Shown here piece after piece: positions 1-63,814 of a stretch of 64,000 nt of DNA (positions are counted from its first letter, which is position 1; each line of letters begins with the position of its first letter). The stretch is from Escherichia virus TH35. Where the stretch lies: the sequence record MT446408.1. One strand, given 5' to 3'. The notes under the pieces were generated by a model. The model worked only from the letters and a program-made list of their open reading frames with translations. It made no database searches and had not been told where the DNA came from. A program made the translations under genes and the position numbers.

Positions 1-1
1 G

Positions 2-1065: not shown

Positions 1066-1094
1066 TTTACTTGTGCGTTTCGATGAGTTATCTT
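1066..1094 (+). promoter_or_regulatory. Sigma70-like promoter (TTTACT-N17-TATCTT) overlapped by inverted repeat CGATGAG/CTCATCG
   Basis: Hexamers and spacing read from sequence upstream of 1130 ATG; shares about 50 bp of similarity with element at 7996-8040. Confidence 0.4.
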
Positions 1095-1129
1095 TATCTC
1101 ATCGAAACGAAGTCCAAAAGGATAAATAA

Positions 1130-1813
1130 ATGAAAAAAGTAATTGTTGTAACTGGCTGCAATTCCGGTCTTGGTAAATCCATTTTTGACACCCTTGGCGC
1201 TTACGGTCATGAAGTTGTCGGTATTGATTTGGAGAACGGCTATGACATCCGTAACGCGAAACAGATGAAAGAGCTTCTCTCTCAATACGACGTAGAAGGC
1301 TTGATCAACTGCGCTGGCGTCAACTCCAACAACTGGTTCGAAGATGTTAACTACGAAGAGTTCAATCGCGTTATGCACACCAACGCCTTCTCTTTCGTCA
1401 ACACGACTCAGGCCGCGCTGAAAAGTCTTATTGACAACAAAGGTTTTGTGATCAACATCGTTTCCAACGCTGCGCATATTCCTATGACGTCCAGCTTGTG
1501 TTATAATGCTTCCAAGGCTGCTGCGCTCATGATTAGCAAGCAGATGGCTCACGAGCTTACGCCTAAATACGGGATCACGGTGTTCTCTATTAGTCCTAAC
1601 AAGCTACGTGGTACTGGCATGTCCAAACAGATTGAAGATGCTGTTTGCGCGACTCGCGACTGGACTCCTGAGTATGCTGCTGAATACCAGAAAAAGGCGT
1701 TGATGAATGGATTGGAGACTGAGCCGCAAGTAATTGCTGACTTCATTCGACATATCTTAATTACGGGCGCATGGCGCTTTATGTCTGGTACTGATATTCC
1801 ATTTGGGAAATAA
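1130..1813 (+). CDS. Short-chain dehydrogenase/reductase (SDR) family oxidoreductase
   Basis: ORF track 227 aa; Rossmann motif VTGCNSGLGK and catalytic YNASK (YxxxK); RBS AAGGA upstream. Confidence 0.8.
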   Translation: MKKVIVVTGCNSGLGKSIFDTLGAYGHEVVGIDLENGYDIRNAKQMKELLSQYDVEGLINCAGVNSNNWFEDVNYEEFNRVMHTNAFSFVNTTQAALKSLIDNKGFVINIVSNAAHIPMTSSLCYNASKAAALMISKQMAHELTPKYGITVFSISPNKLRGTGMSKQIEDAVCATRDWTPEYAAEYQKKALMNGLETEPQVIADFIRHILITGAWRFMSGTDIPFGK

Positions 1814-1816
1814 ATC

Positions 1817-1987
1817 ATGACTATCAAAGTTGTTGTAGAAGTGATTGGCGACTTGGCAGAAGTGAAGATTGATCAAGAAGGCGTTGGATTTGAAGTAATA
1901 AGAATCGAAAACGCAAAGATTAACCACGAGCGCGTCGGTTCCATTGAGACTTATTCCATAGAAGGCAACACAGTAATTAATCAATAA
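1817..1987 (+). CDS. Small hypothetical protein (56 aa), below ORF-track size cut-off
   Basis: ATG 1817 to TAA 1985-1987 translated by eye; fills the gap between SDR gene and next gene on the coding strand. Confidence 0.3.
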   Translation: MTIKVVVEVIGDLAEVKIDQEGVGFEVIRIENAKINHERVGSIETYSIEGNTVINQ

Positions 1988-2007
1988 TATTTAATTAAGG
2001 AAACAAA

Positions 2008-2559
2008 ATGCCACATTTTAAAATTGAACAAATCGCCCTGTCAATTCCATGTGCTCAGCGCGCACAGAATTTCCTGGCTAAAATCGGCCTGACAGAATGG
2101 TTCCATGATCACGTTGTTGCTACTGGTCGCGTATTTGAAGCTGATGTCTTTAAGGGTCAGCGCGGCGATTGCACCAACGAAGCTGACTTGCGCTTCAACT
2201 ATCAGGCTGGCAACGGCACCGATGGCGGCGCTGGTAAGCCTCTTGAGCTTGAAATTCTTGACTATACAAAAGGTTGCAACTGGATTCACGAAAACATCGA
2301 ATACATCGATGCGCACGACAATCAGGTTAGCCATCTTGGTATGCACGTGACTGCCGCTGAACTTGCTGAATGGCGTAAGTTCTTTAAAGAAGAAGGTATT
2401 CAGGTTGCACAGGAAGTTGTAACTGACTCTCATACCAACCCGAACATTGCTGGTCAACGTCGTTACAACTATGTGATCTTTGATACGCGTGAAATCATCG
2501 GCGTTGATTTGAAGTTTATCGTGCGCTTGAATCAAGACGGTACTCCGTACACTGTATAA
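2008..2559 (+). CDS. Hypothetical protein (183 aa)
   Basis: ORF track; RBS AAGGAA upstream; no confident family assignment. Confidence 0.55.
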   Translation: MPHFKIEQIALSIPCAQRAQNFLAKIGLTEWFHDHVVATGRVFEADVFKGQRGDCTNEADLRFNYQAGNGTDGGAGKPLELEILDYTKGCNWIHENIEYIDAHDNQVSHLGMHVTAAELAEWRKFFKEEGIQVAQEVVTDSHTNPNIAGQRRYNYVIFDTREIIGVDLKFIVRLNQDGTPYTV

Positions 2560-2575
2560 CGAATCGTGAATCTGT

Positions 2576-2601
2576 GGCCGTCCTAATGGGCGGCCTTTTT
2601 G
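2576..2601 (+). terminator. Rho-independent terminator (GC hairpin GGCCG...CGGCC followed by T-run)
   Basis: Hairpin plus TTTTT read directly downstream of 2559 stop. Confidence 0.55.
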
Positions 2602-2613
2602 TAGGAGGCTAAT

Positions 2614-3156
2614 GTGTTATTTCTCCCTTATGACTTCGAAACAACCGGATTGACCGTGCACCCGAAAGCGCCGCTTGGGATGCAGCCGCGCCCTATTGAA
2701 TTTGCAGGTCTGTTGACAGACGGCAAAGAGATTCTTGAAACGTTTGAATTCATAATTAATCCTGAAATCGTGATTGAAGAAATTATCACAAAGATTACCG
2801 GATTAACAAATGAAGACCTTGAGTGCAATCCACCATTCATCAATTTTGTCCCGCAGCTAAAAGAAATCTTCAAGAAGACGGATGCCACTATCGCGCACAA
2901 CCATGCGTTCGATAAAAACATTCTTGATTATGCACTACAGCGCGAAGGACTTACGCTTGATGGTGTTAATTTTCCAGAAATAAACATTTGTACAGTTGAG
3001 CAAACCTTGCCTATTTTTGGCCGAAGAGTTAAGCTTCAAGAGCTGTATGAATTATATTTCGGAAAATATGAACAGAAACACCGTGCATTAGACGACGTAA
3101 TATTACTGCACAAAGTCTGCCAACAAATTGGCGTATATGACATCTGGAGTAAATAA
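2614..3156 (+). CDS. DnaQ-like 3'-5' exonuclease (DEDD family, proofreading-type)
   Basis: ORF track 180 aa (GTG start, RBS AGGAGG); Exo I YDFETTGL, Exo II AHNHAFD, Exo III HRALDD motifs. Confidence 0.8.
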   Translation: MLFLPYDFETTGLTVHPKAPLGMQPRPIEFAGLLTDGKEILETFEFIINPEIVIEEIITKITGLTNEDLECNPPFINFVPQLKEIFKKTDATIAHNHAFDKNILDYALQREGLTLDGVNFPEINICTVEQTLPIFGRRVKLQELYELYFGKYEQKHRALDDVILLHKVCQQIGVYDIWSK

Positions 3157-6053
3157 TGTTTCCACAATTGAGAGTTCGCAGCGGTTACACGTTCAAAGAA
3201 GTTTATGGACGGCATCCTGAAATTATAGCACGGCTCAAAGAGTTGGGCTGCGAAGTCGCGGCATTAGTTGATAACAACACATGGGGTCACGTTCGCTGGG
3301 AAAAGGAATGCCAGAAAAATGATATTAAGCCTATGTTTGGGATGGAGATTCCAATCATCGACCCTGATGCGGACCCGAAAAAGGGATTCAAACCGAAGGC
3401 TTGGATATTGGCCCTTGACTTGAAATCTTTTTACAATGCTACAACACTTGCAACGCAGCGCGGTGGACTTACCCGTTCAGAGTTCGGTGCGCTCGATGGC
3501 GTCGTTAAATTCTGTGGCGGTGCCGTGGAGTTGCTGCGGCCAGAGGACTACGACTATATAGACGTCAACCCATCATCGTTCCTTTTGGCAAAGCGCCAGG
3601 CATTGGCTCATCGTAGCAGTGGAAGGCCGCTGGTTTTAACCGGATACAATCACATGCCTTCACCTGAGCACGTTGACTTTGCTTATGCGTGGGAAGTGCG
3701 CGACACGGTTAAGCCGCATTGCATCGTTGACGTTGAAGACTTGCGCAAACAGCTTAAAGGCATCTTGACTGAAGATGAACTTGATCAGGCAACGGCCAAT
3801 GCTGTGGACATCGCAAACGGCATAGTCGGGCTTGACTTGAAATTGCGTAAGGCACCGATTATTCACCTTGCTGGTGACATGGTAAAGCTTGCTCGCGAGG
3901 GTATGGAGTACCGTCTAAAAGCAGGTCACATCAAAGAATGGACTCAGGAATACGAGGACCGCTTCAACGAAGAAATTCACCAGATTCAGCTGAAAGATTT
4001 CGACTCATACTTTCTGGTGGTAGCGGACCTTGTACGATTCGCAAAAACAAAAATGCTCGTCGGTCCTGCGCGCGGCTCATCGGCTGGTTCACTTGTTTGC
4101 TATTGCCTCGGCATCACGGAAGTGGACCCAATCCCGTATAAGCTGCTGTTTGCCCGATTCATCGACGTAAGTCGCGCCGACCTTCCTGACATCGACATCG
4201 ACTTTGAAGATACCAAACGCTATATGGTGTTTGATTATCTCAAAGAGAAATACGGCGAAATGAATGTTGCAAAGCTTGGCAACATCAACACGCTTAAGGC
4301 CAACTCAGTAATGGCGCAGGTTGGTAAGAAGTTCAACATTGGATACCACGAAACGGCCAACATTAAAAACGCACTGCTTGAATACTCATCCGGTGACGCC
4401 CGTTATGGTCACGGCCTGGAGGATACCTTTGCAACAACGACCACGGGCCAAGAGTTCGTGGCGAAATATCCTGACGCCGCGCGTTGCATGGGTGACCTTG
4501 AGATTCACCCTTCCCACACAGGGGTGCACGCAGCGGGAATCATCGTGTGTAATGACCCAATCTCTGATTACTGTACTGTAACTGCGGAAGGGATTGCGCA
4601 AATCGATAAGCCTGACAGCGAGTACCTTAACCTTTTGAAGCTTGATGCACTGGGCCTTCGTACTCTCGGCATTATTTCTGATACAGGCGTTATTGATGCT
4701 GAAACGCTCTACGGAATCAAGCTTGATGATCAAAGCGTACTTGACATTCTTAACGAAAACAAGATGTCAGGCATCTTCCAGTTTGAAGGTGACGCTGTAC
4801 GCTCAGTAACAAACTTTGTGCACGTCGACAACTTTAACAAAATCGACAACCTGACAGCTTTGGGTCGACCTGGCCCGTTGTCATCCGGTATGGCCCAGAA
4901 ATACATTGAACGCGCGGCAGGGCGTGCGCCGATTGAGTACGACGTGCCGCAGCTTGAGCCGTACTTGAAAGAGACTTACGGCGTGTTTCTTTACCAAGAG
5001 CAAATCATGGCCGTGGTTAAAGAGATTGGTTCATTTGACTGGGCGAAAACGTCAGCTGTGCGTAAGGCGATGTCAGGCCGTAAGGGTGAAGAATACTTTA
5101 ACAAGCTTGGCGAGGACTTTGTTGCAGGCGCAATCAATAACGGCGTACCGGAAGCGGATGCAAGAAAGCTTTGGCAAGCGATGGCCACGTTCGGGTCATG
5201 GGGCTTTAACAAGTCACACTCCGTGTCATACGCGGTCGTGACCTACTGGACCTTGTGGCTTAAGCGACACTACCCGTTGGAATTTGCCGCTGCCTGCTTA
5301 CGCGCTGCTAAGGACGAAGACCAGACGATTGCGATATTACGTGAACTAGCGAAGGAAGGCGTGGATTATGTGCCAATCGACCCTGATCACTCTTCGATGA
5401 ACTGGACCATCGCGAACGGAAAGCTAATCGGCGGCATCATGAACGCGAAAGGATACGGAATGGTGAAGGCGATGAAGTATATCGAAGCGCGTGAAGCCGG
5501 AACCTTAACGCAAAAGCAAAAGGACGCATTGGCCAATGCTGAAGTCAAATACGGCGACCTTACAGAGATGCACACAAAGTTCGGCTGGGCGTATAATGAC
5601 CCGTATCTGATTGGTGTGACGTCCGGCGCTTCAATACGCCAGATGAAGGAAGTCGGTGATGACGAGCGTGCAATAGTAATCGGCAAGTTGACAAAGAAAG
5701 TGCTTGCAGACGAGAACGAAGCGACACGCATCCGTAAACGACTTGAGCGCGGCATCTATACAAAGCACGGCAAGCTTAAAAAAGGTCTTCAAGCTGATGG
5801 CCGCTACGCAGAGTTTGACCAGTACGGAAACAAGCTTGAGACTCAGTTCATCGACCTTATGTGCAAAGACGACTCGACCGACTCGCCAATGCGCTTCAGG
5901 ATTCGTCCAGAAAAGTTCCAGAAGTACGGGAAATACATTGCTGAAAACGTCGGGAACGGCGCATTCTTCCTGATGAAAGGTCGCAAGCTTGAAGGCATTG
6001 ACATGTTCATAGTCGACGTTATCAAACAGGTGTATCCAGATGGCAACAAATAA
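3156..6053 (+). CDS. DNA polymerase III alpha-subunit-like replicative polymerase (DnaE family, PHP domain N-terminal)
   Basis: ORF track 965 aa; conserved GSSAGSLVCYCLGIT and DLPDIDIDFE polymerase motifs. Confidence 0.9.
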   Translation: MFPQLRVRSGYTFKEVYGRHPEIIARLKELGCEVAALVDNNTWGHVRWEKECQKNDIKPMFGMEIPIIDPDADPKKGFKPKAWILALDLKSFYNATTLATQRGGLTRSEFGALDGVVKFCGGAVELLRPEDYDYIDVNPSSFLLAKRQALAHRSSGRPLVLTGYNHMPSPEHVDFAYAWEVRDTVKPHCIVDVEDLRKQLKGILTEDELDQATANAVDIANGIVGLDLKLRKAPIIHLAGDMVKLAREGMEYRLKAGHIKEWTQEYEDRFNEEIHQIQLKDFDSYFLVVADLVRFAKTKMLVGPARGSSAGSLVCYCLGITEVDPIPYKLLFARFIDVSRADLPDIDIDFEDTKRYMVFDYLKEKYGEMNVAKLGNINTLKANSVMAQVGKKFNIGYHETANIKNALLEYSSGDARYGHGLEDTFATTTTGQEFVAKYPDAARCMGDLEIHPSHTGVHAAGIIVCNDPISDYCTVTAEGIAQIDKPDSEYLNLLKLDALGLRTLGIISDTGVIDAETLYGIKLDDQSVLDILNENKMSGIFQFEGDAVRSVTNFVHVDNFNKIDNLTALGRPGPLSSGMAQKYIERAAGRAPIEYDVPQLEPYLKETYGVFLYQEQIMAVVKEIGSFDWAKTSAVRKAMSGRKGEEYFNKLGEDFVAGAINNGVPEADARKLWQAMATFGSWGFNKSHSVSYAVVTYWTLWLKRHYPLEFAAACLRAAKDEDQTIAILRELAKEGVDYVPIDPDHSSMNWTIANGKLIGGIMNAKGYGMVKAMKYIEAREAGTLTQKQKDALANAEVKYGDLTEMHTKFGWAYNDPYLIGVTSGASIRQMKEVGDDERAIVIGKLTKKVLADENEATRIRKRLERGIYTKHGKLKKGLQADGRYAEFDQYGNKLETQFIDLMCKDDSTDSPMRFRIRPEKFQKYGKYIAENVGNGAFFLMKGRKLEGIDMFIVDVIKQVYPDGNK

Positions 6054-6462
6054 CCGTGAGCAGAAATACATATTCGTGCCTTTAAAGAAGCATTCAGAGT
6101 CAGTATTGAAGCTTCAACGAATCGAGTCGATGACTGGTGATGGCGTGCCGGACGTAATCGGCACCAACCGGAAAGGGCGCGGCTTTTGGCTTGAAATGAA
6201 GTTCTTTGAATCGTGGCCTGCAAGGGCCACCACTGCACCTTTCAGAAATGCATTTGAGAAAGGTCAATGCAGCTTTCTTTCTTCGTGGAATGATTGGAAA
6301 TACCCATCATTTGTTCTGCTTAAGGTTGATTCTGAGAAGATGTTTTATTTAGTCCACCCTTCTATTGAATTAAAGCGTTATAATACTGCAGACGTTCAAC
6401 GTGAGATAATCGTGAAGGGAACTATTCATCACATCATCAAGTATTTAGAGGAATTGTCGTGA
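6040..6462 (+). CDS. VRR-NUC domain nuclease (PD-(D/E)xK fold)
   Basis: ORF track 140 aa; GVPDVIG ... GFWLEMK motif arrangement. Confidence 0.7.
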   Translation: MATNNREQKYIFVPLKKHSESVLKLQRIESMTGDGVPDVIGTNRKGRGFWLEMKFFESWPARATTAPFRNAFEKGQCSFLSSWNDWKYPSFVLLKVDSEKMFYLVHPSIELKRYNTADVQREIIVKGTIHHIIKYLEELS

Positions 6463-7982
6463 AAACACAAGGAATGCGCCACCAATTATTGGCGCTTGAT
6501 AAAGCAGGCCGCAGAAAATACTTTGCTTATTTCATGGAGCAGGGTCTTGGCAAAACCTGGACCGCTTTGGCAGAGTTTGAAAAGCATTTTACCGCTGGCG
6601 CATTTGATGCCATGGTTGTAATCGCTCCTAACGGTGTACACTCAAACTGGATTCGTCGTGAAGCACCAGAGCACCTTTCCATTAAATGGATTGGTCATTA
6701 CTGGCGCGGCAATGACAAAATGAAAACTAAAAAGGGCAAGGCGCTTTGGGAGAAGATGTTTGCTGATCACTATCCTGAAGGCGAAGTGCCTGCACGAATC
6801 TTCTCATTCAACATTGACACGGTGAACACGCCAGTCGGTTATCAACACATTGAGTCCGTACTGAAGAAGTACCGCTGTTTGATGATCATTGATGAATCGA
6901 CGCGTATCAAAAATAACACAGCCAAACGCTCCATCAAGGTTGTGGAATTGGGACGGCTGGCAAAGGCCCGTCGAATCCTTTCCGGTACGCCGCTGCCGCG
7001 CTCGCCTGCTGATATTTACATGCAGTATCACTTCCTTGAAGCTGGCTTGCTTGGCACAAAATCGTTCCGTGCATTCAACTCTGAATTTACAGTCCTGCTT
7101 GAAGCGCACGACCCAGAGATGCAGGCCATTCTCAAGAAAATCGGCGGCAACGGTTATGGCATTCCGCAAGTGCCGCGCAAAGACCATTTTGGCCGACCGA
7201 TGTACAAAAACCTTGACAAGCTTATCCGGCTGATGGAACCGCACTATTTTCGTGCGACAAAAGCGGAATACTTGCCGGACCTTCCAGAGAAGGTGTACAA
7301 GTTTATTGACTTCGAGTTGTCGCCTAAACAACGCGATGTTTACGATGAACTCAAGAATGAGTACAACTATCTGATGGAGTACAAAGGCGAAGAAGAAAAC
7401 GTTAAGTTTGAGATGATCGCATCTCGCACTAAGATGAAGCAGGTGACATCAGGCTTTGTTAAGGTGTATGATGAGATGGTCTACATGGAAGACAACCCAC
7501 GATTCACGGCCTTTAAGGACTATGTGGAAGGGGTGCTGGAAGACGACCCAGAGCGCAAATTCATTGTTTGGGCCATCTTTAAGGAAGAGATGAACCAGAT
7601 TAAGGACTGGCTTGAGTCTGAAGGCGTGGTCACTGGTGTATATAACGGTGAAACATCAAAAGAGCAGCGCGAGTTCTTGATTGATGACTTCCAGAAGAAC
7701 ACAGTTGAGAACGGTGGAACGCAAGTCTTAGTTTGTCACGCTGCAGCGGCAGGCATCGGAATCACGCTTACCGCCGCCGACTTGGCAATCTATTATTCTT
7801 GCAACTATGACAACGAGTTGCGCAAGCAATCCGAAGACCGAAATCACCGCATCGGCACCAAATCAAGCGTGTTGTATGTTGATTTTATTGGGGTTGATAC
7901 CATCGACGAAGAAATTCAGCGTTCATTGAGTATGAAGTCTATGCTTGCTGATCACATCCTCGACGGCAAAAAGATGAATTAA
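6459..7982 (+). CDS. SNF2-family helicase
   Basis: ORF track 507 aa; motif I GLGKT, motif II IIDESTRIKN, motif VI QSEDRNHRIG. Confidence 0.85.
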   Translation: MKTQGMRHQLLALDKAGRRKYFAYFMEQGLGKTWTALAEFEKHFTAGAFDAMVVIAPNGVHSNWIRREAPEHLSIKWIGHYWRGNDKMKTKKGKALWEKMFADHYPEGEVPARIFSFNIDTVNTPVGYQHIESVLKKYRCLMIIDESTRIKNNTAKRSIKVVELGRLAKARRILSGTPLPRSPADIYMQYHFLEAGLLGTKSFRAFNSEFTVLLEAHDPEMQAILKKIGGNGYGIPQVPRKDHFGRPMYKNLDKLIRLMEPHYFRATKAEYLPDLPEKVYKFIDFELSPKQRDVYDELKNEYNYLMEYKGEEENVKFEMIASRTKMKQVTSGFVKVYDEMVYMEDNPRFTAFKDYVEGVLEDDPERKFIVWAIFKEEMNQIKDWLESEGVVTGVYNGETSKEQREFLIDDFQKNTVENGGTQVLVCHAAAAGIGITLTAADLAIYYSCNYDNELRKQSEDRNHRIGTKSSVLYVDFIGVDTIDEEIQRSLSMKSMLADHILDGKKMN

Positions 7983-7995
7983 TATCAAAAATAAT

Positions 7996-8024
7996 TTGAC
8001 TTGTCACGGAAGATGAGTCATAAT
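7996..8024 (+). promoter_or_regulatory. Sigma70-like promoter (TTGACT-N17-CATAAT) with downstream GATGAG...CATCGAAACGAA box
   Basis: Read from sequence upstream of 8057 ATG. Confidence 0.5.
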
Positions 8025-8056
8025 TACTTCATCGAAACGAAACAGAGGAATACAAA

Positions 8057-8320
8057 ATGGTACGCATCCTTGAACGTTACAAAAATGAAGCTACTGGCGC
8101 AATCGCTTTCAAACGTCTTTTGGTCAAAGAAATTGACGGAATGTTTCGCATTGTTAAAGAGTTTGATTATGGCAACGGTGCTGGGGTGAATACCGTTATC
8201 ATGCCTGGCATCAAGGCGTATAAAACCTTAAAAGGCGCTGAGAAGGCTTTGTCGGCTTGGAAACCTGAACGTTATCAAATGACCCGTGTTGAAGGGCTAA
8301 TGCAAGAAGGTAAAATATGA
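8057..8320 (+). CDS. Hypothetical protein (87 aa)
   Basis: ORF track; RBS GAGGAA upstream; preferred over overlapping 8001-8189 ORF which covers the promoter. Confidence 0.6.
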   Translation: MVRILERYKNEATGAIAFKRLLVKEIDGMFRIVKEFDYGNGAGVNTVIMPGIKAYKTLKGAEKALSAWKPERYQMTRVEGLMQEGKI

Positions 8321-8874
8321 GCAATATTAATTGGGAAGATGATTTGCCGCAGGTCGCTCCTGAGAGCATTCAAGAGCGCCTTGCGCGCTTAGTATCTGAA
8401 TTGGCAGAACGCCAAGAAGCTTTGACAGAGCTTGAAGATGAAGCTGATATGCAAAAGCAGCGCATCAGTGAAATCAAGACTGTTTTACTTCCTGGCGTCA
8501 TGGATGAGCTTGGCGTGTCTGAAATCAAGCTTGAAGACAAGACCAAAATCAAGGTCGAGTCGAAAGTGAATGCTTCAATCAAGAAAGAAAACGAATTAAA
8601 AGTTTTCGATTGGCTTGTCAACAACGGTTACGGCGGCCTGATCAAGTCCAGCGTCACGGCTGAGTTCGGTCGCGAAGAAATCGAACAGGCGCAAGAGATT
8701 GTTGCCGCGCTGCGTGAAGATGGTGTTGAAGCAACGTTGAAACAAGGCGTTCATTCTGCTACACTGAAGTCATTTGTAAAAGAACAACTGGAAGCGGGCA
8801 ATCCAGTTAGTGAAGATATTAGCGTTTTTGAATACAAAGAAGCTAAAATAACCTTGCCTAAAAGCAAAAAGTAA
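8317..8874 (+). CDS. Hypothetical protein (185 aa) with N-terminal coiled-coil
   Basis: ORF track; translational coupling with upstream gene; function not assigned. Confidence 0.6.
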   Translation: MSNINWEDDLPQVAPESIQERLARLVSELAERQEALTELEDEADMQKQRISEIKTVLLPGVMDELGVSEIKLEDKTKIKVESKVNASIKKENELKVFDWLVNNGYGGLIKSSVTAEFGREEIEQAQEIVAALREDGVEATLKQGVHSATLKSFVKEQLEAGNPVSEDISVFEYKEAKITLPKSKK

Positions 8875-8933
8875 TTTAACCTTTATCTTGAAATCAGGTT
8901 GCCACGAAACTTGATACTATAGGAAAATATCAA

Positions 8934-9794
8934 ATGTCTAAGAAAGAAACTACCGAAGTTGCAGTGAAAAACACCCAGATGTCCGCTATGGCTGATTTTG
9001 TCGACATGACCGATTTTGGCGCTGGTTTTGAAGGTGCCGATGCCGATGCGTATGCCATTCCTTTTATCGTCGTACTGCAGAAGATGTCTCCTATGGTCGA
9101 CGAAGATGATCCAAAACACGTTCCTGGCGCAAAAGCTGGCATGCTTTACAACACCGTTACTGGTGAGTTGTATGACGGCAAGAAAGGCGTGCAGATCATC
9201 CCTTGCGCATTCAAACGCACCTTCATCCTTTGGGGCGGTCGCGAGTCCGACGATAAAGGCTTTAAAGGTGAATTCACCAAAGAGCACGTTGATGCAGAAG
9301 TAGCGGCAGGCCGCGCTGTTGAGATCAACGGTAAAGTGTTTGTGCCGGACGAAAACGGCAAAGTGCACGAGAAGAAATCGCCTTACTACGCAGATACACG
9401 TAACCACTTCGTAATTCTGTTGAACGAAGAAACTGGTGAATTTGGTAGCGCAATGTTGTCTTTGACTTCTTCGATGATCAAGCCGTCTCGCATGCTGATG
9501 ACCGCGCTGCAGCAGAAGAAAGTTCAGACTCCGCAAGGTCTGAAAACGCCGCCGACCTTTATGAACATCGTTCGCATGGGTACTGCATCCCAGTCCAAAG
9601 ACGGGAACACCTGGTCTGTTCTGAAGTTTGAGTTGGAAGGTCTGGTGCAGGACAAAGGTCTGTATGAAGTCGCCAAAGCATTCCACAACGATGTAGTTGG
9701 CGGCAACGTTAACATTGACCGCAGCAAGCAGGAAGAAGCAAGCGGTGCCGCTGGCCCTGTTAATGAAACTCCGACCGACGCAGAAGAGTTTTAA
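8934..9794 (+). CDS. Hypothetical protein (286 aa)
   Basis: ORF track; position between helicase and lysis genes; no confident family. Confidence 0.65.
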   Translation: MSKKETTEVAVKNTQMSAMADFVDMTDFGAGFEGADADAYAIPFIVVLQKMSPMVDEDDPKHVPGAKAGMLYNTVTGELYDGKKGVQIIPCAFKRTFILWGGRESDDKGFKGEFTKEHVDAEVAAGRAVEINGKVFVPDENGKVHEKKSPYYADTRNHFVILLNEETGEFGSAMLSLTSSMIKPSRMLMTALQQKKVQTPQGLKTPPTFMNIVRMGTASQSKDGNTWSVLKFELEGLVQDKGLYEVAKAFHNDVVGGNVNIDRSKQEEASGAAGPVNETPTDAEEF

Positions 9795-9812
9795 TCGACA
9801 ATCAAATCAACA

Positions 9813-9838
9813 AGGCTGCCGATTGGCGGCCTTTTATT
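9813..9838 (+). terminator. Rho-independent terminator
   Basis: GGCTGCC-GATT-GGCGGCC hairpin followed by TTTTATTT. Confidence 0.55.
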
Positions 9839-9851
9839 TATCTGGTGCATC

Positions 9852-10370: not shown

Positions 10371-10960
10371 AACAGATTTATGCAAACATTCGCCAGTGGG
10401 CTTCTGACCGTAACATCATCCAAGGTTGCGACCTTAAGGACCAATACCCGAAGCTTATCAGCGAGTTTGGGGAGTTAACCGACCACGTTGATCAACTCCA
10501 TGACCTTGTGTTCTTTGACCATGAAATTGAATATACAGAGCAGGCCATCTGTGACCTGCAGGCCGCAATCAAGGACGACATTGGTGATTGTCTTGTTGTA
10601 TTGACTATCCTTGCCGCGCAAAATGGTGCAAAAATCGAAGACATCAACGGCGGCGGTTGCGCTGACAAAGGTGCCCACCCTCACTCGTTTATCCTTCGCT
10701 TGGCAAAGACTCTCGGACGGCTTGGTGACGCCATTGCTAAAAATCAGAGCATGGATATTGATGTCACCATCATGGTCGCAGTCGATTACCTTTCCGGCGT
10801 AGCTCATGATTATGGCCTTCGCTTATCCGACTGTGCGCAAGCGGCCTACGAAGACATCAAGGACCGCAAAGGTGTCATGTACAACGGCACGTTTATCAAA
10901 TCGACTGATCAGGCTTACGCCTATGCGCTGGAACAAGTAATGAATGAGGGGAAAGAGTGA
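10367..10960 (+). CDS. MazG-like nucleotide pyrophosphohydrolase
   Basis: ORF track 197 aa; EFGELTDH and IGDCLVVL motifs typical of all-alpha NTP pyrophosphatases. Confidence 0.6.
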   Translation: MKQIYANIRQWASDRNIIQGCDLKDQYPKLISEFGELTDHVDQLHDLVFFDHEIEYTEQAICDLQAAIKDDIGDCLVVLTILAAQNGAKIEDINGGGCADKGAHPHSFILRLAKTLGRLGDAIAKNQSMDIDVTIMVAVDYLSGVAHDYGLRLSDCAQAAYEDIKDRKGVMYNGTFIKSTDQAYAYALEQVMNEGKE

Positions 10961-11934
10961 TGGCAGGAGAGATCAAAGCGCTTAAGCCAATGAAAGGCTG
11001 TCAACGTAAGCAAATCATCGAACGCGGTGAAGACGTTCCGTTACCTTGCGGATTGTCATTTAAGGTTGATGGCATACGTGCTATGGCTTATGACAAGCTT
11101 CCTATGGGTACGTCTGGAATGCCGCTGCGAAACGTTCAAATCAAGAAAGAGTTCCTTTTCTTGGGCGATTTGATTTACGGCCTTGATGGTGAACTCATCG
11201 ACGGCAATCCTAATGACAAGAACGTCATGCAGCAGGCATATACTGCGTGCATGAATACTGATGCAATAACTAACTTTACATGGTGGGTGTTTGATGACTT
11301 CAGCGACCCCGATTTACCTTTTGAAAAGCGTTATGCGAACTATCGGGCTAGAGTTGCTGAGGTCAATCAGTATCTCTTGGACCATGGCCACAGACCATTC
11401 CTTCGCGCCCTTGAATACCGAAACATTGAGAATATGGATCAATACGCGGCAATGCAAGTCGAAGCGGACCAGCTTGGATATGAAGGCTTATACGGCAAAT
11501 CGTGGACGGGCAAATACAAGCATGGTCGCGCAACGCCGAAGTCGCGTGATGTATGGAAAGACAAGCCGTGGACCGACGAAGAAGGACAGATCATAGATTT
11601 CGTCGAGATGATGGAGAATAACAACGAAGCGTTCATTGATGAGCTTGGTCGCACAAAACGATCAAAGGAAGCTGAAGGACTCGTTGCCAAGGGTTATCTC
11701 GGATCATTTGTCGTAGTCAATCCAAAGTATGTAGATGAGAAGGGTGAGATGATTCCTTTCCGTGTGTCCGCAGGTTCAATGCCTATGGCAGAGCGGAAGA
11801 TGCTTTGGGATAATCGCGAAAATTATCGCCACAAATACTTGACGTATAAATTCTTTAACTTTGGCATCGTTGACGTGCCGCGCTCTGCGCTTTATAAATG
11901 CTTCCGTGATATTACCGATATGGAGTATTTTTAA
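10957..11934 (+). CDS. ATP-dependent DNA ligase
   Basis: ORF track 325 aa; nucleotidyltransferase motif I FKVDGIR (KxDG). Confidence 0.75.
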   Translation: MMAGEIKALKPMKGCQRKQIIERGEDVPLPCGLSFKVDGIRAMAYDKLPMGTSGMPLRNVQIKKEFLFLGDLIYGLDGELIDGNPNDKNVMQQAYTACMNTDAITNFTWWVFDDFSDPDLPFEKRYANYRARVAEVNQYLLDHGHRPFLRALEYRNIENMDQYAAMQVEADQLGYEGLYGKSWTGKYKHGRATPKSRDVWKDKPWTDEEGQIIDFVEMMENNNEAFIDELGRTKRSKEAEGLVAKGYLGSFVVVNPKYVDEKGEMIPFRVSAGSMPMAERKMLWDNRENYRHKYLTYKFFNFGIVDVPRSALYKCFRDITDMEYF

Positions 11935-12008
11935 CACACTGGATAAATAATTGTTGCGTATAATCTATCGCGCCGTTTTATAGAATTTAATATACAGTGT
12001 ATACATAA

Positions 12009-12035
12009 AGCCGGAAATTTCCGGCTTTTCTTTTA
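12009..12035 (+). terminator. Rho-independent terminator
   Basis: Perfect palindrome AGCCGGAAATTTCCGGCT followed by T-run. Confidence 0.6.
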
Positions 12036-12050
12036 TTTACTTTCGGCGTA

Positions 12051-12078: not shown

Positions 12079-12109
12079 ATTAATATTCATAATCAAAAGG
12101 TGAATTATA

Positions 12110-59103: not shown

Positions 59104-59751
59104 TTATCCTGTGGCCTGCATATTGCGTACATACTTCTGCTCTAATGAATAGATGAAGTCGGCGACAGTCAATCCCTTCGTGTGCCATTCATACATGGTG
59201 AAGCCTGTATTCAGGAAATAGCCGCGCACCTTGTCCATCGCTTCAGCTTCCTCCAGTGAAGCCATCAGCGCGGCGACGTTGTCATAAGAAGGTACAAATC
59301 CCTTCTTGCGTAGCGCATTGCGCAAATCTTTAGTTCTGAAGCCAATCTTGCAAGGGTCATCGCGGCCCGTGGATGATGCAACCTTTGGAAGAGCAAGGAA
59401 CTCTTTGAGGAACATTGCAATGTTCAAGTCGCCTGCATCATCAAGCTTCTGGATTCGGTTGCGACCGCGACCCTTGAATTCACTCGCACGAGGGTGAGCG
59501 CCAAAACAGTGCGCCCCTTCCAGTTTAGGGTCAATGATCATCACATCTTTCCCAATGCGCAGCTCTACGTAGTAAAGATAAGACTCATCGACAAGCTTTG
59601 TGCGCTTGCAAGTGATTGAGTCCTTATCATAACCAAAGCCGCGCAACACGGTTGAGATCATTCGGTTCATTTCTTCGCCGTGAACGTCACTTTCTTTGTT
59701 CAGTTCACCAAGATGTTGAAAGAATTTAGCGATGTTGATTGCTTTATTCAT
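59104..59751 (-). CDS. Hypothetical protein (215 aa)
   Basis: ORF track. Confidence 0.6.
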   Translation of the reverse strand: MNKAINIAKFFQHLGELNKESDVHGEEMNRMISTVLRGFGYDKDSITCKRTKLVDESYLYYVELRIGKDVMIIDPKLEGAHCFGAHPRASEFKGRGRNRIQKLDDAGDLNIAMFLKEFLALPKVASSTGRDDPCKIGFRTKDLRNALRKKGFVPSYDNVAALMASLEEAEAMDKVRGYFLNTGFTMYEWHTKGLTVADFIYSLEQKYVRNMQATG

Positions 59752-61421
59752 CAGAATTCATCCTTATCTCTTCCCAAAGAACGTTTACGCTCAATAACCT
59801 TCTTCAAGAATTCAATATCTTCAGGGTCAGACTCATCGCGGATAAGATACGCTAAGATGGTCATCAAATCAGAAATGTATTCTCCTGCTTCATTCTTAAT
59901 CAGCGGCGTAAAGTACCCGCGCTGGTTGCGATAGGTTGCAGGCTCAAAACCAAGCTTCGACATGTGCGGCGCAAGGGTACGTGAGAAAGGCGACTTGCCG
60001 CACTTAGCTCTGAAGCCCATAGCGATTGCACCACTAGTGATGTGCCAGCGTCCGCTGTGATGTCGGTCATAAGGCGCGGTAATGATGACTTCAACAAGGT
60101 CGTTGTCGACCATCTCATCACGGATAACGCCGCGAGCGCGTTCCATTTCGTTCTTACTGAACTCAGTAAGCATACGAGATGTTTCACCAACAAAGGCATT
60201 GTAACCTGCTTCACCGTGCTTCTCCATCCACGCAGCGCACTCAGCCATCAGTTGCCAAACGTCTTCTTTCAAAGTGGAAAGGTCAGCTTGGAAGTCTTTA
60301 GACCAGTTCGGTTGCCCGTCCTTGTCAGCAAGTTGTCCAACAAAGATAGGGTACACACGACGGTTGCCCGTGTCGTCACGCTGCATACCTGCGTATTCGT
60401 TGCCGTCCATGATAGCAATCCACTGGCGTGGTTTAACCTGCGTGTCTTCAAATTTGAAGTCCAGGTCATCTTCCGTCTTAGTCAGGAATGCTTTCATGTT
60501 TTCGATGTCAGCCTTTTTAAAGCCTGTCATCTCGCCAACGTTCGCGATAATTGAGCGACCCGTAATAGCTCGCAAGAACGGGTTGAAGTTCTGCGCGGCC
60601 AAGTTCAACGGAATCGGTGTTGCGTGGCGGTCGTTCATAATAGCTTCGCAAAGTAGCTTACTAAAATAACTCTTCCCTGCGTTCTGGCCGCCGATGAGCG
60701 CAATGGAGATTGGCGCTTGACAGCCAGGGTTGGTCAGGCGGTTATAGAGCGATAGCCAAAAATACACACCGATTTGTCGGTTTAACTCTGTATCGAACGG
60801 TCGGAATAGCTCGATAAGGTATTTCTCAATGCGCGCAGTACCGTCCCATTCAGGCAGCTTCTTGTAGAAGAAGTCCATCAGGTCATCGCGCTGATAACGC
60901 ATGGCCCATTCCTTATAGGATTGAGCGACCTGACGTGAGTTTGGGTTGGACAGGCCTGCTGCGTCGACAGCGGCAACTATCTCTGTGACTTCCAACGTCC
61001 GGTCGGTGAATGTTTCTCCGCGATGGTCGACTAAGCGTCCACGAAAAGTATCTTTGTGAGGGAATGGGACAATGCCGCTTCCCTTATCAAACAACGCGTC
61101 GAAAACCGCATAACGGTTCATGTCACTCGTCCGGTCCGCCTGAAGAACAAAATCATCTTTCGTCGGTTTGTAGTGAGGGAACTTGATTACCTGAAGTGAG
61201 GCGAGCAAACGTGCTCTTTCAACCAAGTCTTCTTCACCGTAGCATTCCATGCGCTCTGCATCTTTCTCAACAGCCTTATGCTGGAGGCTGATTTTAGCTC
61301 TGGCGCCTTGCTGCTCTGCCGCTTGCATTTCTTCTGAAACACCAGCGTCTTGAATTTCGTCAAAGATTGCACCAAATTCATCACCTGTATCCTCTGGAAG
61401 ATTGTCATGTTCAATTGACAT
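59751..61421 (-). CDS. P-loop NTPase of the primase-associated D5/VirE-like helicase type
   Basis: ORF track 556 aa; Walker A IALIGGQNAGKS; directly downstream of primase gene cluster. Confidence 0.55.
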   Translation of the reverse strand: MSIEHDNLPEDTGDEFGAIFDEIQDAGVSEEMQAAEQQGARAKISLQHKAVEKDAERMECYGEEDLVERARLLASLQVIKFPHYKPTKDDFVLQADRTSDMNRYAVFDALFDKGSGIVPFPHKDTFRGRLVDHRGETFTDRTLEVTEIVAAVDAAGLSNPNSRQVAQSYKEWAMRYQRDDLMDFFYKKLPEWDGTARIEKYLIELFRPFDTELNRQIGVYFWLSLYNRLTNPGCQAPISIALIGGQNAGKSYFSKLLCEAIMNDRHATPIPLNLAAQNFNPFLRAITGRSIIANVGEMTGFKKADIENMKAFLTKTEDDLDFKFEDTQVKPRQWIAIMDGNEYAGMQRDDTGNRRVYPIFVGQLADKDGQPNWSKDFQADLSTLKEDVWQLMAECAAWMEKHGEAGYNAFVGETSRMLTEFSKNEMERARGVIRDEMVDNDLVEVIITAPYDRHHSGRWHITSGAIAMGFRAKCGKSPFSRTLAPHMSKLGFEPATYRNQRGYFTPLIKNEAGEYISDLMTILAYLIRDESDPEDIEFLKKVIERKRSLGRDKDEF

Positions 61422-62731: not shown

Positions 62732-63814
62732 CTATTTTATGCCACCTGCGCGACGATTTATCATATCAAGTTGATTCTCAATATAAGGCATGACTACTGC
62801 TTCAACAAAAGCGGTCCAGCCTTTCTTGCCTTCCCCTTTCCGGTGACAGTCGTGAGCACAACCGAAAACGAATTCATGTTCAGCACCAGGGATGGGGCCG
62901 CGAAAATAAGCGCCGTATGGGTCGCCGTTGGTGTGCTCTTCACCCCAAGGGCAAATGATTCGGCATTTACCTGACATGTTTTCAACCACATCGCCATCAG
63001 ACCCTTCGCCCATCTTATTGCGCGCAAGGATTTGCTGGGCTATCTTATACCAAACAGCATCATATTTGTATTCGTCAACGTCGATTTGAATTTCACGCTT
63101 TTGCGGCATAACGACGTGGAAACCGAAGGCTTGGCAAATCTCTTCGATTGTGTAGCGCAAAGAATAGTCTGCATGGACAAGTCGGCAGCGGAACGGGTCG
63201 CCGTTCTCATCGACATATTTATAGGGGCCGTCGTGAGTCACGCGCTTGTTGTTGATGCACCCAGGAACACGGCCCACGCGCGTCACGTCTTTAATCGTAT
63301 TGTCGCCGCCCTTCTTGAGTACCATGTTTACGAAAGACCCAAGGAATGCTTTGAACTGAATAAGATGGTCAATTGGCTCTTTAAAGAAATACCACAGCTG
63401 GTGGTTGTTCGGCGAAGTCTCAACGATGACGGTTGGCTTCAGACGCTCGAAAAAGAACTCCAAATCTAAATCGCCTTTAGACCCTTTACCGTGACCGATG
63501 TCGTCGACCATCATCGCCATGCCATGACCAAAGGCCGATTCCGTGCGCCAGTATCGCATCTCGCCTGTCTTTGGGTTGGGAGACTTACGCATTGAACTTA
63601 TGCAGGCGTAACCGTTCTGATGTTGCATCAGCGGCTTGCCAAGCTTCCAAGGCTTAGGCCAGAAGCTGCTGTTAATCTTTTTGCCGCGCTCGTCGGTCTG
63701 CACCGTTGCTTCAGGCGCAAACACGGTCATGACGCGTTCATCTTCTGGAATGCCTCTTTGGAGTTCCGTCAAAAACTCTTCGATTATTTTTGCTTCTTCT
63801 CTTAAACTAGCCAT
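62732..63814 (-). CDS. Archaeo-eukaryotic-type primase (primase-polymerase-like) with C-terminal zinc-binding region
   Basis: ORF track 360 aa; AEP-like motifs MMVDDIGHG, ETSPNNHQLW, RVGRVPGCINNK; Cys/His cluster CPWGEEH ... FGCAHDCH. Confidence 0.65.
   Translation of the reverse strand: MASLREEAKIIEEFLTELQRGIPEDERVMTVFAPEATVQTDERGKKINSSFWPKPWKLGKPLMQHQNGYACISSMRKSPNPKTGEMRYWRTESAFGHGMAMMVDDIGHGKGSKGDLDLEFFFERLKPTVIVETSPNNHQLWYFFKEPIDHLIQFKAFLGSFVNMVLKKGGDNTIKDVTRVGRVPGCINNKRVTHDGPYKYVDENGDPFRCRLVHADYSLRYTIEEICQAFGFHVVMPQKREIQIDVDEYKYDAVWYKIAQQILARNKMGEGSDGDVVENMSGKCRIICPWGEEHTNGDPYGAYFRGPIPGAEHEFVFGCAHDCHRKGEGKKGWTAFVEAVVMPYIENQLDMINRRAGGIK

What the first reader, a model, noticed from the sequence alone, without database searches (positions are those of the whole stretch)
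2614..7982. Replication module of bacterial-replisome type: DnaQ-like exonuclease plus DnaE-like polymerase, with VRR-NUC nuclease and SNF2 helicase
The polymerase carries the Pol III alpha catalytic motifs rather than family A or B motifs common in phages, and is preceded by a separate DEDD exonuclease. The far end of the window adds an AEP-type primase and a D5/VirE-like NTPase (59751-63814). The combination is a distinctive replication strategy worth placing phylogenetically.
Basis: partly seen in the sequence, partly recalled or inferred. Interest (0 to 1): 0.5.

Follow-up and report, generated by a model that had tools for sequence, protein, structure and literature searches.

The report
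Known Wifcevirus phage DnaE replication module
The flagged genes are a real but already annotated replication and repair block of a known E. coli phage group (Wifcevirus), built round a bacterial-type DNA polymerase that shows no sign of using a sliding clamp.

Summary
Four overlapping + strand genes at 2614-7982 encode a DEDDh exonuclease, a DnaE-type C-family polymerase with intact catalytic aspartates, a 140-aa nuclease and an SNF2 ATPase. A RepB'-type primase and a VapE/D5-like NTPase lie at 59751-63814 on the - strand.

The window is 97% identical to sequenced Wifcevirus phages (Bas101, vB_Eco4M-7). Those records, and one paper (PMC7048862), already list this block. The same gene order occurs in Pseudomonas Pbunavirus. 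DnaE-like genes occur in 1374 of 50,697 phage records. The finding is therefore ordinary.

Three corrections:
- **"VRR-NUC" is approximate.** The ORF has no Pfam hit. Its best profile match is a phage VRR-Nuc structure (E 2e-4), but its predicted fold is closest to the RecU and Hjc Holliday-junction resolvases. The "DNA helicase" label in databases is wrong.
- **"Bacterial-replisome type" is overstated.** The polymerase lacks the β-clamp motif, the τ-binding C-terminal domain and the PHP metal ligands, and ends in an OB fold. No clamp, clamp loader, DnaB or DnaG was found.
- **The polymerase is not a recent host acquisition.** Its clade is monophyletic (100/100) and about 29-30% identical to every bacterial DnaE sampled, E. 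coli's included.

How a clampless C-family polymerase achieves processivity remains open.

The parts
2576..2600 (+). Intrinsic-terminator-like hairpin (GGCCGTCC-TAAT-GGGCGGCC followed by a T run) just upstream of the module
   Evidence: 8 pairs, 7 of them G-C; sequence. This is a consensus match only. Function is not shown.
2604..2609 (+). Shine-Dalgarno-like AGGAGG, 4 nt upstream of the GTG start of the exonuclease gene
   Evidence: Read directly from the sequence.
2614..3156 (+). DEDDh 3'-5' exonuclease, 180 aa (20.8 kDa). It is the catalytic domain only and is the presumed proofreading subunit.
   Evidence: PF00929, 1.4e-21. PHROG 192 'DNA polymerase exonuclease subunit', 2.9e-37. Best solved relative is the T. 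maritima PolC-type exonuclease 2p1j, 4.5e-6. All NCBIfam epsilon and dnaQ models score below their cut-offs. The motifs DFETTG, HNHAFD and HRALDD are present.
3156..6053 (+). DnaE-type C-family DNA polymerase, 965 aa (108 kDa). Layout: degenerate PHP, then palm/thumb/fingers, then a helical region, then an OB fold. It has no beta-clamp motif and no tau-binding CTD.
3156..3875 (+). PHP domain with its metal ligands lost (the usual HxH reads RVR in QLRVRS). Limits are approximate, residues 1-240.
   Evidence: Pfam PHP 26.6 bits against a cut-off of 26.4. Four of the five N-terminal metal-ligand columns examined are lost across the clade.
3882..5144 (+). Polymerase core (Pfam DNA_pol3_alpha plus finger, residues 243-663) with catalytic D345, D347 and D497
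   Evidence: The catalytic columns are 100% conserved in both the phage and bacterial sets.
5667..6032 (+). C-terminal OB-fold domain of the polymerase (about residues 838-959). The protein ends a few residues later.
6040..6462 (+). 140-aa basic (pI 9.35) PD-(D/E)xK nuclease of the Holliday-junction-resolvase kind (like VRR-Nuc, RecU and Hjc). Its start overlaps the polymerase gene by 14 nt.
6459..7982 (+). SNF2-family ATPase/translocase, 507 aa (58.7 kDa). Its GTG start overlaps the nuclease stop codon (GTGA).
   Evidence: PF00176 8.7e-22 and PF00271 5.8e-11. Best solved relative is the Sulfolobus SNF2/Rad54 core 1z63, 3.6e-21. Motifs GLGKT, IIDEST, SGTP and QSEDRNHRIG are present. Junction sequence.
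10957..11934 (+). ATP-dependent DNA ligase, in the same transcription direction as the module
   Evidence: Weak, sub-threshold Pfam ligase hits. Annotated as a ligase in Bas101.
59751..61421 (-). VapE/D5-like NTPase, 556 aa, the candidate replicative helicase (SF3 by family membership, from general knowledge)
   Evidence: PF05272 1.6e-28. DUF5906 at 22 bits is below its 27.6 cut-off.
62732..63814 (-). RepB'-type (AEP-like) primase, 360 aa
   Evidence: PF16793 1.6e-36. No solved relative by sequence.

Best explanation
This is the conserved DNA-synthesis and DNA-processing block of a Wifcevirus, a PB1-like myophage of E. coli.

**Shown:**
- Four translationally coupled genes encode a catalytically intact DnaE-type C-family polymerase, a stand-alone DEDDh exonuclease, a junction-resolvase-like PD-(D/E)xK nuclease and an SNF2 ATPase.
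- The polymerase lacks the PHP metal ligands, the beta-clamp motif and the tau-binding CTD, and ends in an OB fold.

**Inferred:**
- The exonuclease proofreads in trans for a polymerase whose own PHP site is dead.
- The polymerase works without a sliding clamp or the host Pol III holoenzyme. It would be primed by the phage RepB'-type primase and unwound by the VapE/D5-like and Dda-like helicases. That makes the replisome a mosaic, not a bacterial copy.
- The SNF2 motor and the nuclease remodel and cut branched replication or recombination intermediates before packaging. This would be analogous to T4 UvsW with endonuclease VII, or to T7 endonuclease I.
For: **Identity and conservation.** The block is 93.9-97.2% identical in nucleotides over its full length to the listed Wifcevirus records (28 records cover at least 80% of it at 90% identity or more), which already annotate these genes. 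The same order ThyX-PNK-exo-DnaE-nuclease-SNF2 occurs in Pbunavirus phage billy. The nuclease occurs in 372 phage records, and 374 records hold a DnaE covering at least 80% of the query. In the PB1-like records listed the nuclease lies beside the DnaE gene.

**Polymerase.**
- Pfam, PHROG and PDB hits.
- The catalytic Asp triad is invariant.
- NCBIfam scores: DnaE1 model 496 bits, DnaE2 model 331, PolC model 45. Only the superfamily model TIGR00594 passes its cut-off.
- PHP ligands: H10 and H12 are each Arg in 96% of the clade, while D19 and H44 vary.
- The beta motif (Q91%-x-x-L77%-F94% in 70 bacterial DnaE) is a gap in all 30 clade members. A regex scan of 12 clade members gave only two isolated, non-conserved matches and none in the window protein.
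- The C-terminal OB fold is followed directly by the stop codon.

**No accessory factors.** No clamp or clamp loader is annotated or detectable by Pfam, PHROGs or PDB sequence search.

**Nuclease.**. Prokaryotic VRR-Nuc proteins are dimeric Holliday-junction resolvases (PMC4103454).

**Coupling.** The gene overlaps are 1, 14 and 4 nt.
Against: - No biochemical data exist for any member that I could find.
- Physical association of the exonuclease with the polymerase is untested. The exonuclease lacks epsilon's alpha-binding tail, and no fusions occur among 120 homologs.
- Absence of a clamp rests on sequence methods only. Several unknown ORFs of 180-330 aa near the replication genes could not be modelled.
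- A non-canonical clamp-binding peptide cannot be excluded.
- A reported life cycle of about 10 minutes with a burst of about 100 (PMC7048862) implies fast, processive synthesis. A bare alpha subunit would not be expected to deliver that (general knowledge of E. coli alpha).
- The roles proposed for the SNF2 ATPase and the nuclease rest on analogy.
Confidence: 0.75

Rival explanations
1. Hybrid holoenzyme. The phage alpha and exonuclease plug into host accessory factors (beta clamp, and perhaps the clamp loader) through a non-canonical or exonuclease-borne clamp-binding peptide. The module would then really be a bacterial-type replisome with borrowed parts.
For: The phage encodes no detectable processivity factor, yet it is reported to multiply very fast (PMC7048862; PMC11990801). 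C-family polymerases generally depend on the beta clamp (PMC3919608).
Against: The canonical motif position is deleted in all 30 clade members. No conserved Qxx[LMI]xF-like motif was found in the 12 members scanned. The tau-binding CTD is absent. The exonuclease ends at the catalytic domain, where E. coli epsilon carries its clamp motif and alpha-binding tail. The clade infects hosts from Pseudomonas to Escherichia to Burkholderia, whose clamps differ.
Confidence: 0.13
2. The DnaE is a specialised repair or translesion polymerase like DnaE2/ImuC, and bulk phage replication is done by host Pol III.
For: Its domain composition (PHP-Pol3-HhH-OB, no CTD, dead PHP) matches the one Timinskas et al. 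describe for DnaE2 (PMC3919608).
Against: It is the only polymerase annotated in the related complete genome. It scores higher against the DnaE1 model than the DnaE2 model (496 against 331 bits). It is paired with a proofreading exonuclease. It sits among the primase, helicase, ligase and nucleotide-metabolism genes. It is conserved in all 374 PB1-like records. No ImuA or ImuB partners were seen.
Confidence: 0.06
3. The nuclease and SNF2 pair is not part of replication. It would act in host-DNA degradation or counter-defence.
For: SNF2 ATPases also occur in defence systems: the ZorD model hits at 4.3e-19, far below its cut-off. A homolog of the nuclease sits without DnaE or SNF2 in Achromobacter phage AMA1.
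Against: The pair is tightly coupled in translation to the polymerase gene, with the same order across Wifcevirus and Pbunavirus. The nuclease fold and active site match junction resolvases, not non-specific nucleases.
Confidence: 0.06

Closest known systems
Replication block of sequenced Wifcevirus phages (Bas98-101, vB_Eco4M-7, WFC/WFH, FEC19, ECML-117) and the related Pbunavirus (PB1-like) phages
   Same: The listed Wifcevirus records share 93.9-97.2% nucleotide identity over the whole 5.4-kb block. Gene order and overlaps are the same. Pbunavirus billy has the same ThyX-PNK-exo-DnaE-nuclease-SNF2 synteny. The block is listed in PMC7048862.
   Different: Nothing of substance. This window is another isolate of the same genus.
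Bacterial DnaE1 (E. coli Pol III alpha) with epsilon (DnaQ)
   Same: The PHP-palm-thumb-fingers-HhH-OB order, the catalytic aspartates, and a proofreading DEDDh exonuclease encoded as a separate gene just upstream.
   Different: Only about 29% identity. The QxxLF beta-clamp motif, the tau-binding CTD and the epsilon tail that binds the PHP domain are missing. It scores below every NCBIfam DnaE and epsilon equivalog cut-off. The genome has no beta, clamp loader, DnaB or DnaG.
DnaE2 (ImuC) and the 'ancestral' C-family architecture of Timinskas et al. 2014 (PMC3919608)
   Same: The same domain composition, without the CTD and with a disrupted PHP metal site.
   Different: It scores lower against the DnaE2 model than against the DnaE1 model. 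It is accompanied by a proofreading exonuclease and lies in a replication gene context.
Phage C-family polymerases surveyed by Kazlauskas & Venclovas 2011 and 2016 (PMC3201878, PMC4889955)
   Same: These are phage DnaE-like polymerases conserved from PHP to fingers, with a divergent C-terminus. Among genomes carrying a C-family polymerase, a clamp homolog was found only in phage 0305phi8-36.
   Different: Here the divergent C-terminus is resolved as an OB fold. The 2011 survey could not assign it by sequence.
Stand-alone prokaryotic and phage VRR-Nuc (4QBN, 4QBO), RecU and archaeal Hjc junction resolvases
   Same: The E...PD...ExK...Q signature with the same spacing as 4qbo. The predicted fold matches RecU, Hjc and VRR-Nuc.
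   Different: It is 140 aa against about 90 aa for VRR-Nuc, with a C-terminal extension. It fails Pfam VRR_NUC and RecU thresholds. Activity is untested.

Membership tests
C-family DNA polymerase, DnaE type | Pol3 core (palm/thumb/fingers; PF07733 and PF17657) above curated cut-offs | tested here: met
   214.3 and 129.5 bits against cut-offs of 23.9 and 22. TIGR00594 superfamily model: 475 bits against 434.
C-family DNA polymerase, DnaE type | Catalytic aspartate triad (E. coli D401, D403, D555) | tested here: met
   D345, D347 and D497 are 100% conserved in the phage and bacterial sets.
C-family DNA polymerase, DnaE type | OB domain C-terminal to the core (DnaE topology), with no exonuclease inserted in PHP (a PolC trait) | tested here: met
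DnaE1 (replicative Pol III alpha) | Beta-clamp-binding motif after the (HhH)2 region | tested here: not met
   The column block is a gap in 30 of 30 clade members, against Q91%/L77%/F94% in 70 bacterial DnaE. A regex scan of 12 members found no conserved motif.
DnaE1 (replicative Pol III alpha) | C-terminal tau-binding domain (CTD) | tested here: not met
   The protein ends a few residues after the last OB strand. It is 965 aa, against 1130-1280 aa for the full-length bacterial relatives.
DnaE1 (replicative Pol III alpha) | NCBIfam equivalog score | tested here: not met
   PRK05673: 495.7 bits against a cut-off of 1002.
DnaE1 (replicative Pol III alpha) | Intact PHP metal-binding site (outside the proteobacterial and Bacteroidetes exceptions) | tested here: not met
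   Four of the five N-terminal ligand columns examined are lost across the clade. The remaining four of the nine ligands were not examined.
DnaQ / Pol III epsilon | DEDDh exonuclease fold and motifs (PF00929) | tested here: met
   78.2 bits against a cut-off of 24. Exo I, II and III motifs are present.
DnaQ / Pol III epsilon | Epsilon-family model score (TIGR00573 and equivalogs) | tested here: not met
   36.1 bits against 71.5. Every equivalog model is far below its cut-off.
DnaQ / Pol III epsilon | C-terminal segment that binds the alpha PHP domain, plus a clamp motif | tested here: not met
   The protein is 180 aa and ends about 15 residues after the Exo III motif.
DnaQ / Pol III epsilon | Physical complex with the polymerase and proofreading in trans | not testable with these tools
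   Only adjacency and a 1-nt gene overlap are seen. No fusions occur in 120 homologs.
VRR-NUC (PF08774) | Pfam model above the gathering score | tested here: not met
   No hit even at E<=10. Only 4 of 116 relatives hit, the best at E 0.0027.
VRR-NUC (PF08774) | Active-site signature E / PD / ExK plus the conserved Gln | tested here: met
   E29, D38, E52, K54 and Q76 are invariant. They align without gaps to 4qbo. The role of the Gln is described in PMC4103454.
VRR-NUC (PF08774) | [quoted passage not shown] | tested here: met
VRR-NUC (PF08774) | Dimeric enzyme that cleaves four-way junctions | not testable with these tools
   Needs biochemistry.
SNF2 ATPase | SNF2-related N-lobe and Helicase_C lobe with ATPase motifs | tested here: met
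   Motifs I, II, III and VI are read. Best solved relative is 1z63.
AEP-like RepB' primase | PF16793 above its cut-off | tested here: met
   126.4 bits against 24.3. Catalytic residues were not examined. That RepB' belongs to the AEP group rests on the literature about RSF1010 RepB' and was not tested here.
VapE/D5-like NTPase | PF05272 above its cut-off | tested here: met
   100.1 bits against 25. DUF5906 is sub-threshold.
Bacterial Pol III holoenzyme-type replisome | Own or recruited beta clamp, clamp loader, DnaB helicase and DnaG primase | tested here: not met
   None is annotated in the complete related genome. Unknown neighbouring ORFs give no Pfam, PHROG or PDB hit. A clamp search at the level of fold was not possible.

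The most novel reading that the evidence does not exclude
The PB1-like phage polymerase and its 20-kDa exonuclease could form a minimal, clamp-independent C-family replicase. It would get its processivity from something other than a beta clamp: its OB domain, coupling to the phage VapE/D5-like or Dda-like helicase, or an unrecognised phage factor. That could underlie the unusually short life cycle reported for Wifcevirus. It would be the simplest known way to make a Pol III-type enzyme processive.
Probability: 0.3. Interest if true: 0.5.

Novelty: already known. Interest (0 to 1): 0.2.

Why it matters
As a finding it matters little. The genes are already in GenBank and in print for this genus and for the widely used Pbunavirus therapy phages.

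Three small points are useful:
- The 140-aa gene labelled "DNA helicase" (PHROG 2165 and many records) is really a junction-resolvase-like nuclease.
- The previously unassigned C-terminus of these phage DnaE proteins is an OB fold. The clamp motif and the tau-binding domain are both missing.
- The clade is an old, self-contained phage lineage, not a recent capture from the host.

Together these set up a testable biochemical question: how does a C-family polymerase work without a clamp?

Tried and rejected
- **Word-indexed homolog search for the 140-aa ORF.** It found only 6 close relatives. The exhaustive profile search was needed to reach 312.
- **Pfam at E<=10 for the 140-aa ORF.** It gave only a faint RecU hit. 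NCBIfam gave nothing.
- **Search for a clamp or clamp loader.** I checked the annotation of the complete related genome. I also ran Pfam and PHROGs on the unknown ORFs beside the replication genes, including three that lie outside the window, and PDB sequence searches of the 331-, 279- and 286-aa unknowns. All were negative. The only "clamp loader" PHROG hit (E 5e-4) is the P-loop of the Dda-like helicase, so I rejected it.
- **Fusion evidence linking the exonuclease or nuclease to the polymerase.** None in 120 homologs.
- **Close cellular or prophage relatives of the polymerase.** In 185,579 species genomes the best match is 37% identical, and the full-length ones are ordinary chromosomal-length DnaE.
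- **PolC-type reading of the exonuclease and polymerase** (as some GenBank labels have it). Rejected: the PolC models score 41-45 bits on the polymerase and the exonuclease is a separate gene.
- **Alignment of the region beyond E. coli residue about 860.** It is unreliable in the 100-sequence alignment, so I judged the C-terminus by structure prediction instead.
- **Literature search for biochemistry on phage DnaE.** It found none. The library is limited, so this is not proof of absence.
- **PDB sequence search for the primase.** It found nothing.
Full report
**What is there.** The ORF list shows four co-oriented, overlapping + strand ORFs that match the finding's limits exactly:
- 2614-3156: 180 aa, GTG start.
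- 3156-6053: 965 aa.
- 6040-6462: 140 aa.
- 6459-7982: 507 aa, GTG start.

The junctions overlap by 1, 14 and 4 nt, which points to translational coupling. A terminator-like hairpin at 2576-2595 and an AGGAGG at 2604-2609 precede the first gene.

**Where the window comes from.** Megablast of the 5.4-kb block finds 33 phage records. Twenty-eight of them cover at least 80% of the block at 90% identity or more, and the 20 listed cover it fully at 93.9-97.2%. All belong to the E. coli/Shigella myophage genus Wifcevirus: Bas98-101, vB_Eco4M-7, WFC, WFH, FEC19 and others. Those records already label the genes as DNA polymerase (III alpha), exonuclease/epsilon and helicase. [quoted passage not shown] The genus is a distant relative of Pseudomonas Pbunavirus (PMC11990801). 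Pbunavirus phage billy has the same order: ThyX, PNK, epsilon, alpha, "helicase" (the nuclease), SNF2 helicase. The window is a permuted, incomplete copy of a genome of about 68 kb. The roughly 4.5 kb that is missing holds a Dda-like helicase, ThyX and three unknown genes.

**Polymerase.** Pfam gives DNA_pol3_alpha (3e-63), the finger domain (1e-37) and a borderline PHP hit. The only solved relatives by sequence are DnaE1 chains from Thermus aquaticus (3e0d) and related entries, E. coli and M. tuberculosis, at about 1e-79 to 1e-85. No PolC chain appears.

NCBIfam ranks the DnaE1 model (496 bits) above the DnaE2 model (331) and far above the PolC model (45). Only the superfamily model passes its cut-off. 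The catalytic aspartates are invariant.

It is not a standard Pol III alpha, for four reasons.
1. **Dead PHP site.** In 30 clade members, four of the five N-terminal PHP metal-ligand columns I examined are lost. H10 and H12 are each Arg in 96% of members, and D19 and H44 vary. Seventy bacterial DnaE keep these at 80-92%. The PHP domain therefore cannot supply the zinc-dependent proofreading described for some DnaE1 (PMC3919608).
2. **No clamp motif.** The beta-clamp motif (Q91%-x-x-L77%-F94% in the bacterial set) falls in a gap in every clade member. A motif scan of 12 members gave only two isolated, non-conserved matches, and none in the window protein.
4. **No tau-binding domain.** The chain stops a few residues after the OB fold, so there is no CTD. 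The protein is 965 aa, against 1130-1280 aa for the full-length bacterial relatives.

Timinskas et al. describe this composition (PHP-Pol3-HhH-OB) for DnaE2 and for the presumed ancestral form (PMC3919608).

**Phylogenetic placement.**
- The homolog search returns more than 5,900 hits. The top 120 are 56-99% identical. Most are 900-1,000 aa, and the eight longer ones include two of more than 1,200 aa that probably carry inteins. Many lie on contigs of about 65-73 kb, and the few that carry names come from Pantoea, Serratia, Luteibacter, Xanthomonas and Burkholderia phages.
- In one genome per bacterial species, the 80 best loci kept are 28-37% identical, and the full-length ones are of ordinary chromosomal DnaE length.
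- A neighbour-joining tree on 867 well-occupied columns used 30 phage-clade and 70 bacterial sequences. The phage clade is monophyletic in 100 of 100 bootstraps.
- The window protein is about 29-30% identical to its nearest bacterial DnaE sequences, E. coli's among them. The between-group distance is about twice the spread within bacteria.

It is an old phage lineage, not a recent capture from the host. The tree has limits: it is neighbour-joining only, has no PolC outgroup, and has no labelled DnaE2 or DnaE3 sequences.

In the phage collection, 1374 of 50,697 records hold a DnaE-like gene, including hundreds of actinophages that already carry the annotation "DnaE-like DNA polymerase III". Of these, 374 cover at least 80% of this protein. 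Kazlauskas and Venclovas (2011) noted that viral C-family polymerases are conserved from PHP through fingers with a divergent C-terminus. Among genomes carrying such a polymerase, they found a clamp homolog only in phage 0305phi8-36 (PMC3201878).

**Exonuclease.** It hits RNase_T/DEDDh at 1.4e-21 and has intact Exo I, II and III motifs. Its best solved relative is a PolC-type exonuclease domain from T. maritima. Every NCBIfam epsilon and dnaQ model scores below its cut-off. At 180 aa it is the catalytic domain alone. It lacks the C-terminal segment through which E. coli epsilon binds the PHP domain of alpha (PMC3919608), and, from general knowledge of E. coli epsilon, the clamp-binding motif as well. 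"DnaQ-like" is right at the superfamily level only. Proofreading in trans is a reasonable inference from the dead PHP site, the adjacency and the 1-nt overlap. It is not shown, and no fused versions exist among 120 homologs.

**The 140-aa ORF.**
- **No family hit.** It has no Pfam or NCBIfam hit.
- **Doubtful database label.** PHROG 2165 and many GenBank records call it "DNA helicase".
- **Active-site signature.** An exhaustive profile search finds 312 relatives. In a 116-sequence alignment, E29, D38, E52, K54 and Q76 are invariant, which is a PD-(D/E)xK signature.
- **Pfam VRR_NUC.** Only 4 of the 116 relatives touch the model, the best at E 0.0027.
- **Solved structures by sequence.** The family profile's best match is the phage VRR-Nuc 4qbo (E 2e-4, aligned without gaps through E, PD, ExK and Q), followed by RecU at 7e-3.

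RecU and Hjc are Holliday-junction resolvases, and stand-alone prokaryotic VRR-Nuc proteins are dimeric enzymes that cleave four-way junctions (PMC4103454). The "helicase" label is unsupported: no helicase model hits this ORF, and its fold and active site are those of a nuclease.

The gene occurs in 372 phage records, and in the PB1-like records listed it lies next to the DnaE gene. A homolog also sits alone in an Achromobacter phage that uses PolA.

**SNF2 ATPase.** Both lobes pass their Pfam cut-offs. The ATPase motifs are present. The best solved relative is the Sulfolobus SNF2/Rad54 core.

**Far-end genes.** RepB_primase (1.6e-36) and VapE-like (1.6e-28) are confirmed on the - strand. In the complete genome they form a divergent transcription unit facing the Dda-helicase-to-ligase unit that contains the flagged block.

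**Clamp and clamp loader.** None is annotated in the complete related genome. Unknown ORFs near the replication genes give nothing with Pfam, PHROGs or PDB sequence search. Both structure-prediction slots were already used, so a fold-level search of these ORFs was not possible. This is the main gap.

Mass spectrometry of vB_Eco4M-7 preparations detected proteins of 31.2, 20.7 and 20.8 kDa (PMC7048862). These match the masses of ORFs 8934-9794, 8317-8874 and 2008-2559, which suggests they are abundant or virion-associated proteins rather than replisome parts. The link is inferred from mass alone.

**Most likely mechanism.** The identities above are shown. What follows is inferred.
- The exonuclease proofreads for a polymerase that has lost its own PHP activity.
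- The polymerase works outside the host holoenzyme, because it has lost both known contact points (the beta motif and the tau-binding CTD). It relies on the phage's own primase and its VapE/D5-like and Dda-like helicases.
- The SNF2 motor and the resolvase-like nuclease process branched replication or recombination intermediates before packaging.

"Bacterial-replisome type" therefore overstates the case. The replisome is a mosaic with a bacterial-type catalytic core. How the enzyme becomes processive enough for a reported 10-minute cycle (PMC7048862) is unexplained. That is the only interesting open point, and it applies to the whole, already known, PB1-like group.

**Verdict.** The novelty rating is "already known", and the interest is low.

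Noticed in passing
window 6040-6462 (and PHROG 2165; for example Bas101_0043 and billy_3): The 140-aa junction-resolvase-like nuclease is labelled 'DNA helicase' in PHROGs and in many GenBank phage records. No helicase model hits it, and its fold and active site are those of a PD-(D/E)xK nuclease.
   Followed up: yes
homologs P0121 (1232 aa, Pfam PF14890 intein) and P0105 (1215 aa): Some metagenomic members of the same phage DnaE clade are about 250 aa longer. One carries an intein-splicing domain, so inteins appear to invade this polymerase.
   Followed up: no
window 2008-2559 (+): A 183-aa (20.8 kDa) ORF lies just upstream of the module, separated from it by the terminator-like hairpin. It has only faint Pfam hits (Glyoxalase_4, E 0.14). 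A 'glyoxalase family protein' of 20.8 kDa was detected with a high score by mass spectrometry in vB_Eco4M-7 preparations (PMC7048862).
   Followed up: partly
window 8317-8874 and 8934-9794 (+): Two ORFs matching Pfam families named after cyanophage Pam3 gp33 and gp34 (DUF7307 2.6e-37; Pam3_Gp34 4.2e-86) sit between the replication and lysis genes. Their masses (20.7 and 31.2 kDa) equal two abundant 'unknown proteins' in the vB_Eco4M-7 mass-spectrometry table. Function is unknown.
   Followed up: partly
window 1130-1813 (+) and 193-1065 (+): A FabG-like short-chain dehydrogenase (adh_short, 1.1e-31) and a polynucleotide kinase/phosphatase-like gene lie inside the replication-side transcription unit. 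The dehydrogenase is an unusual passenger among DNA-metabolism genes.
   Followed up: no
window 2576-2613: A strong terminator-like hairpin lies 14 nt before the exonuclease start codon, with no sigma-70-like promoter between them. Either transcription reads through, or the phage uses promoters of another type. Across 1-13000, promoter-like sites are not enriched over shuffled sequence (26 against 18.5 +/- 5).
   Followed up: partly
L003 3149-5631 (Bas101 genes 0050-0052), just outside the window: Three unknown ORFs (148, 331 and 279 aa) lie between ThyX and the Dda-like helicase. They have no Pfam or PDB hit. PHROGs 4828 and 4765 hit the 331- and 279-aa ORFs and are of unknown function; the 148-aa ORF has no PHROG hit. 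The 279-aa ORF may be the 31.1-kDa 'TolA protein' seen in the vB_Eco4M-7 mass-spectrometry table, but I did not compute its mass. They are the best remaining places to look for an unrecognised processivity factor.
   Followed up: partly
L085 5944-6405 (Achromobacter phage AMA1, Steinhofvirus): A homolog of the nuclease occurs in a phage that uses PolA, among nucleotide-metabolism genes and without a DnaE or SNF2 neighbour. The nuclease family is therefore not strictly tied to the DnaE module.
   Followed up: partly
window 4001-6000: G+C is 0.50 over the polymerase gene, against about 0.44-0.46 in the flanking 2-kb windows. This is a minor composition difference and was not pursued.
   Followed up: no
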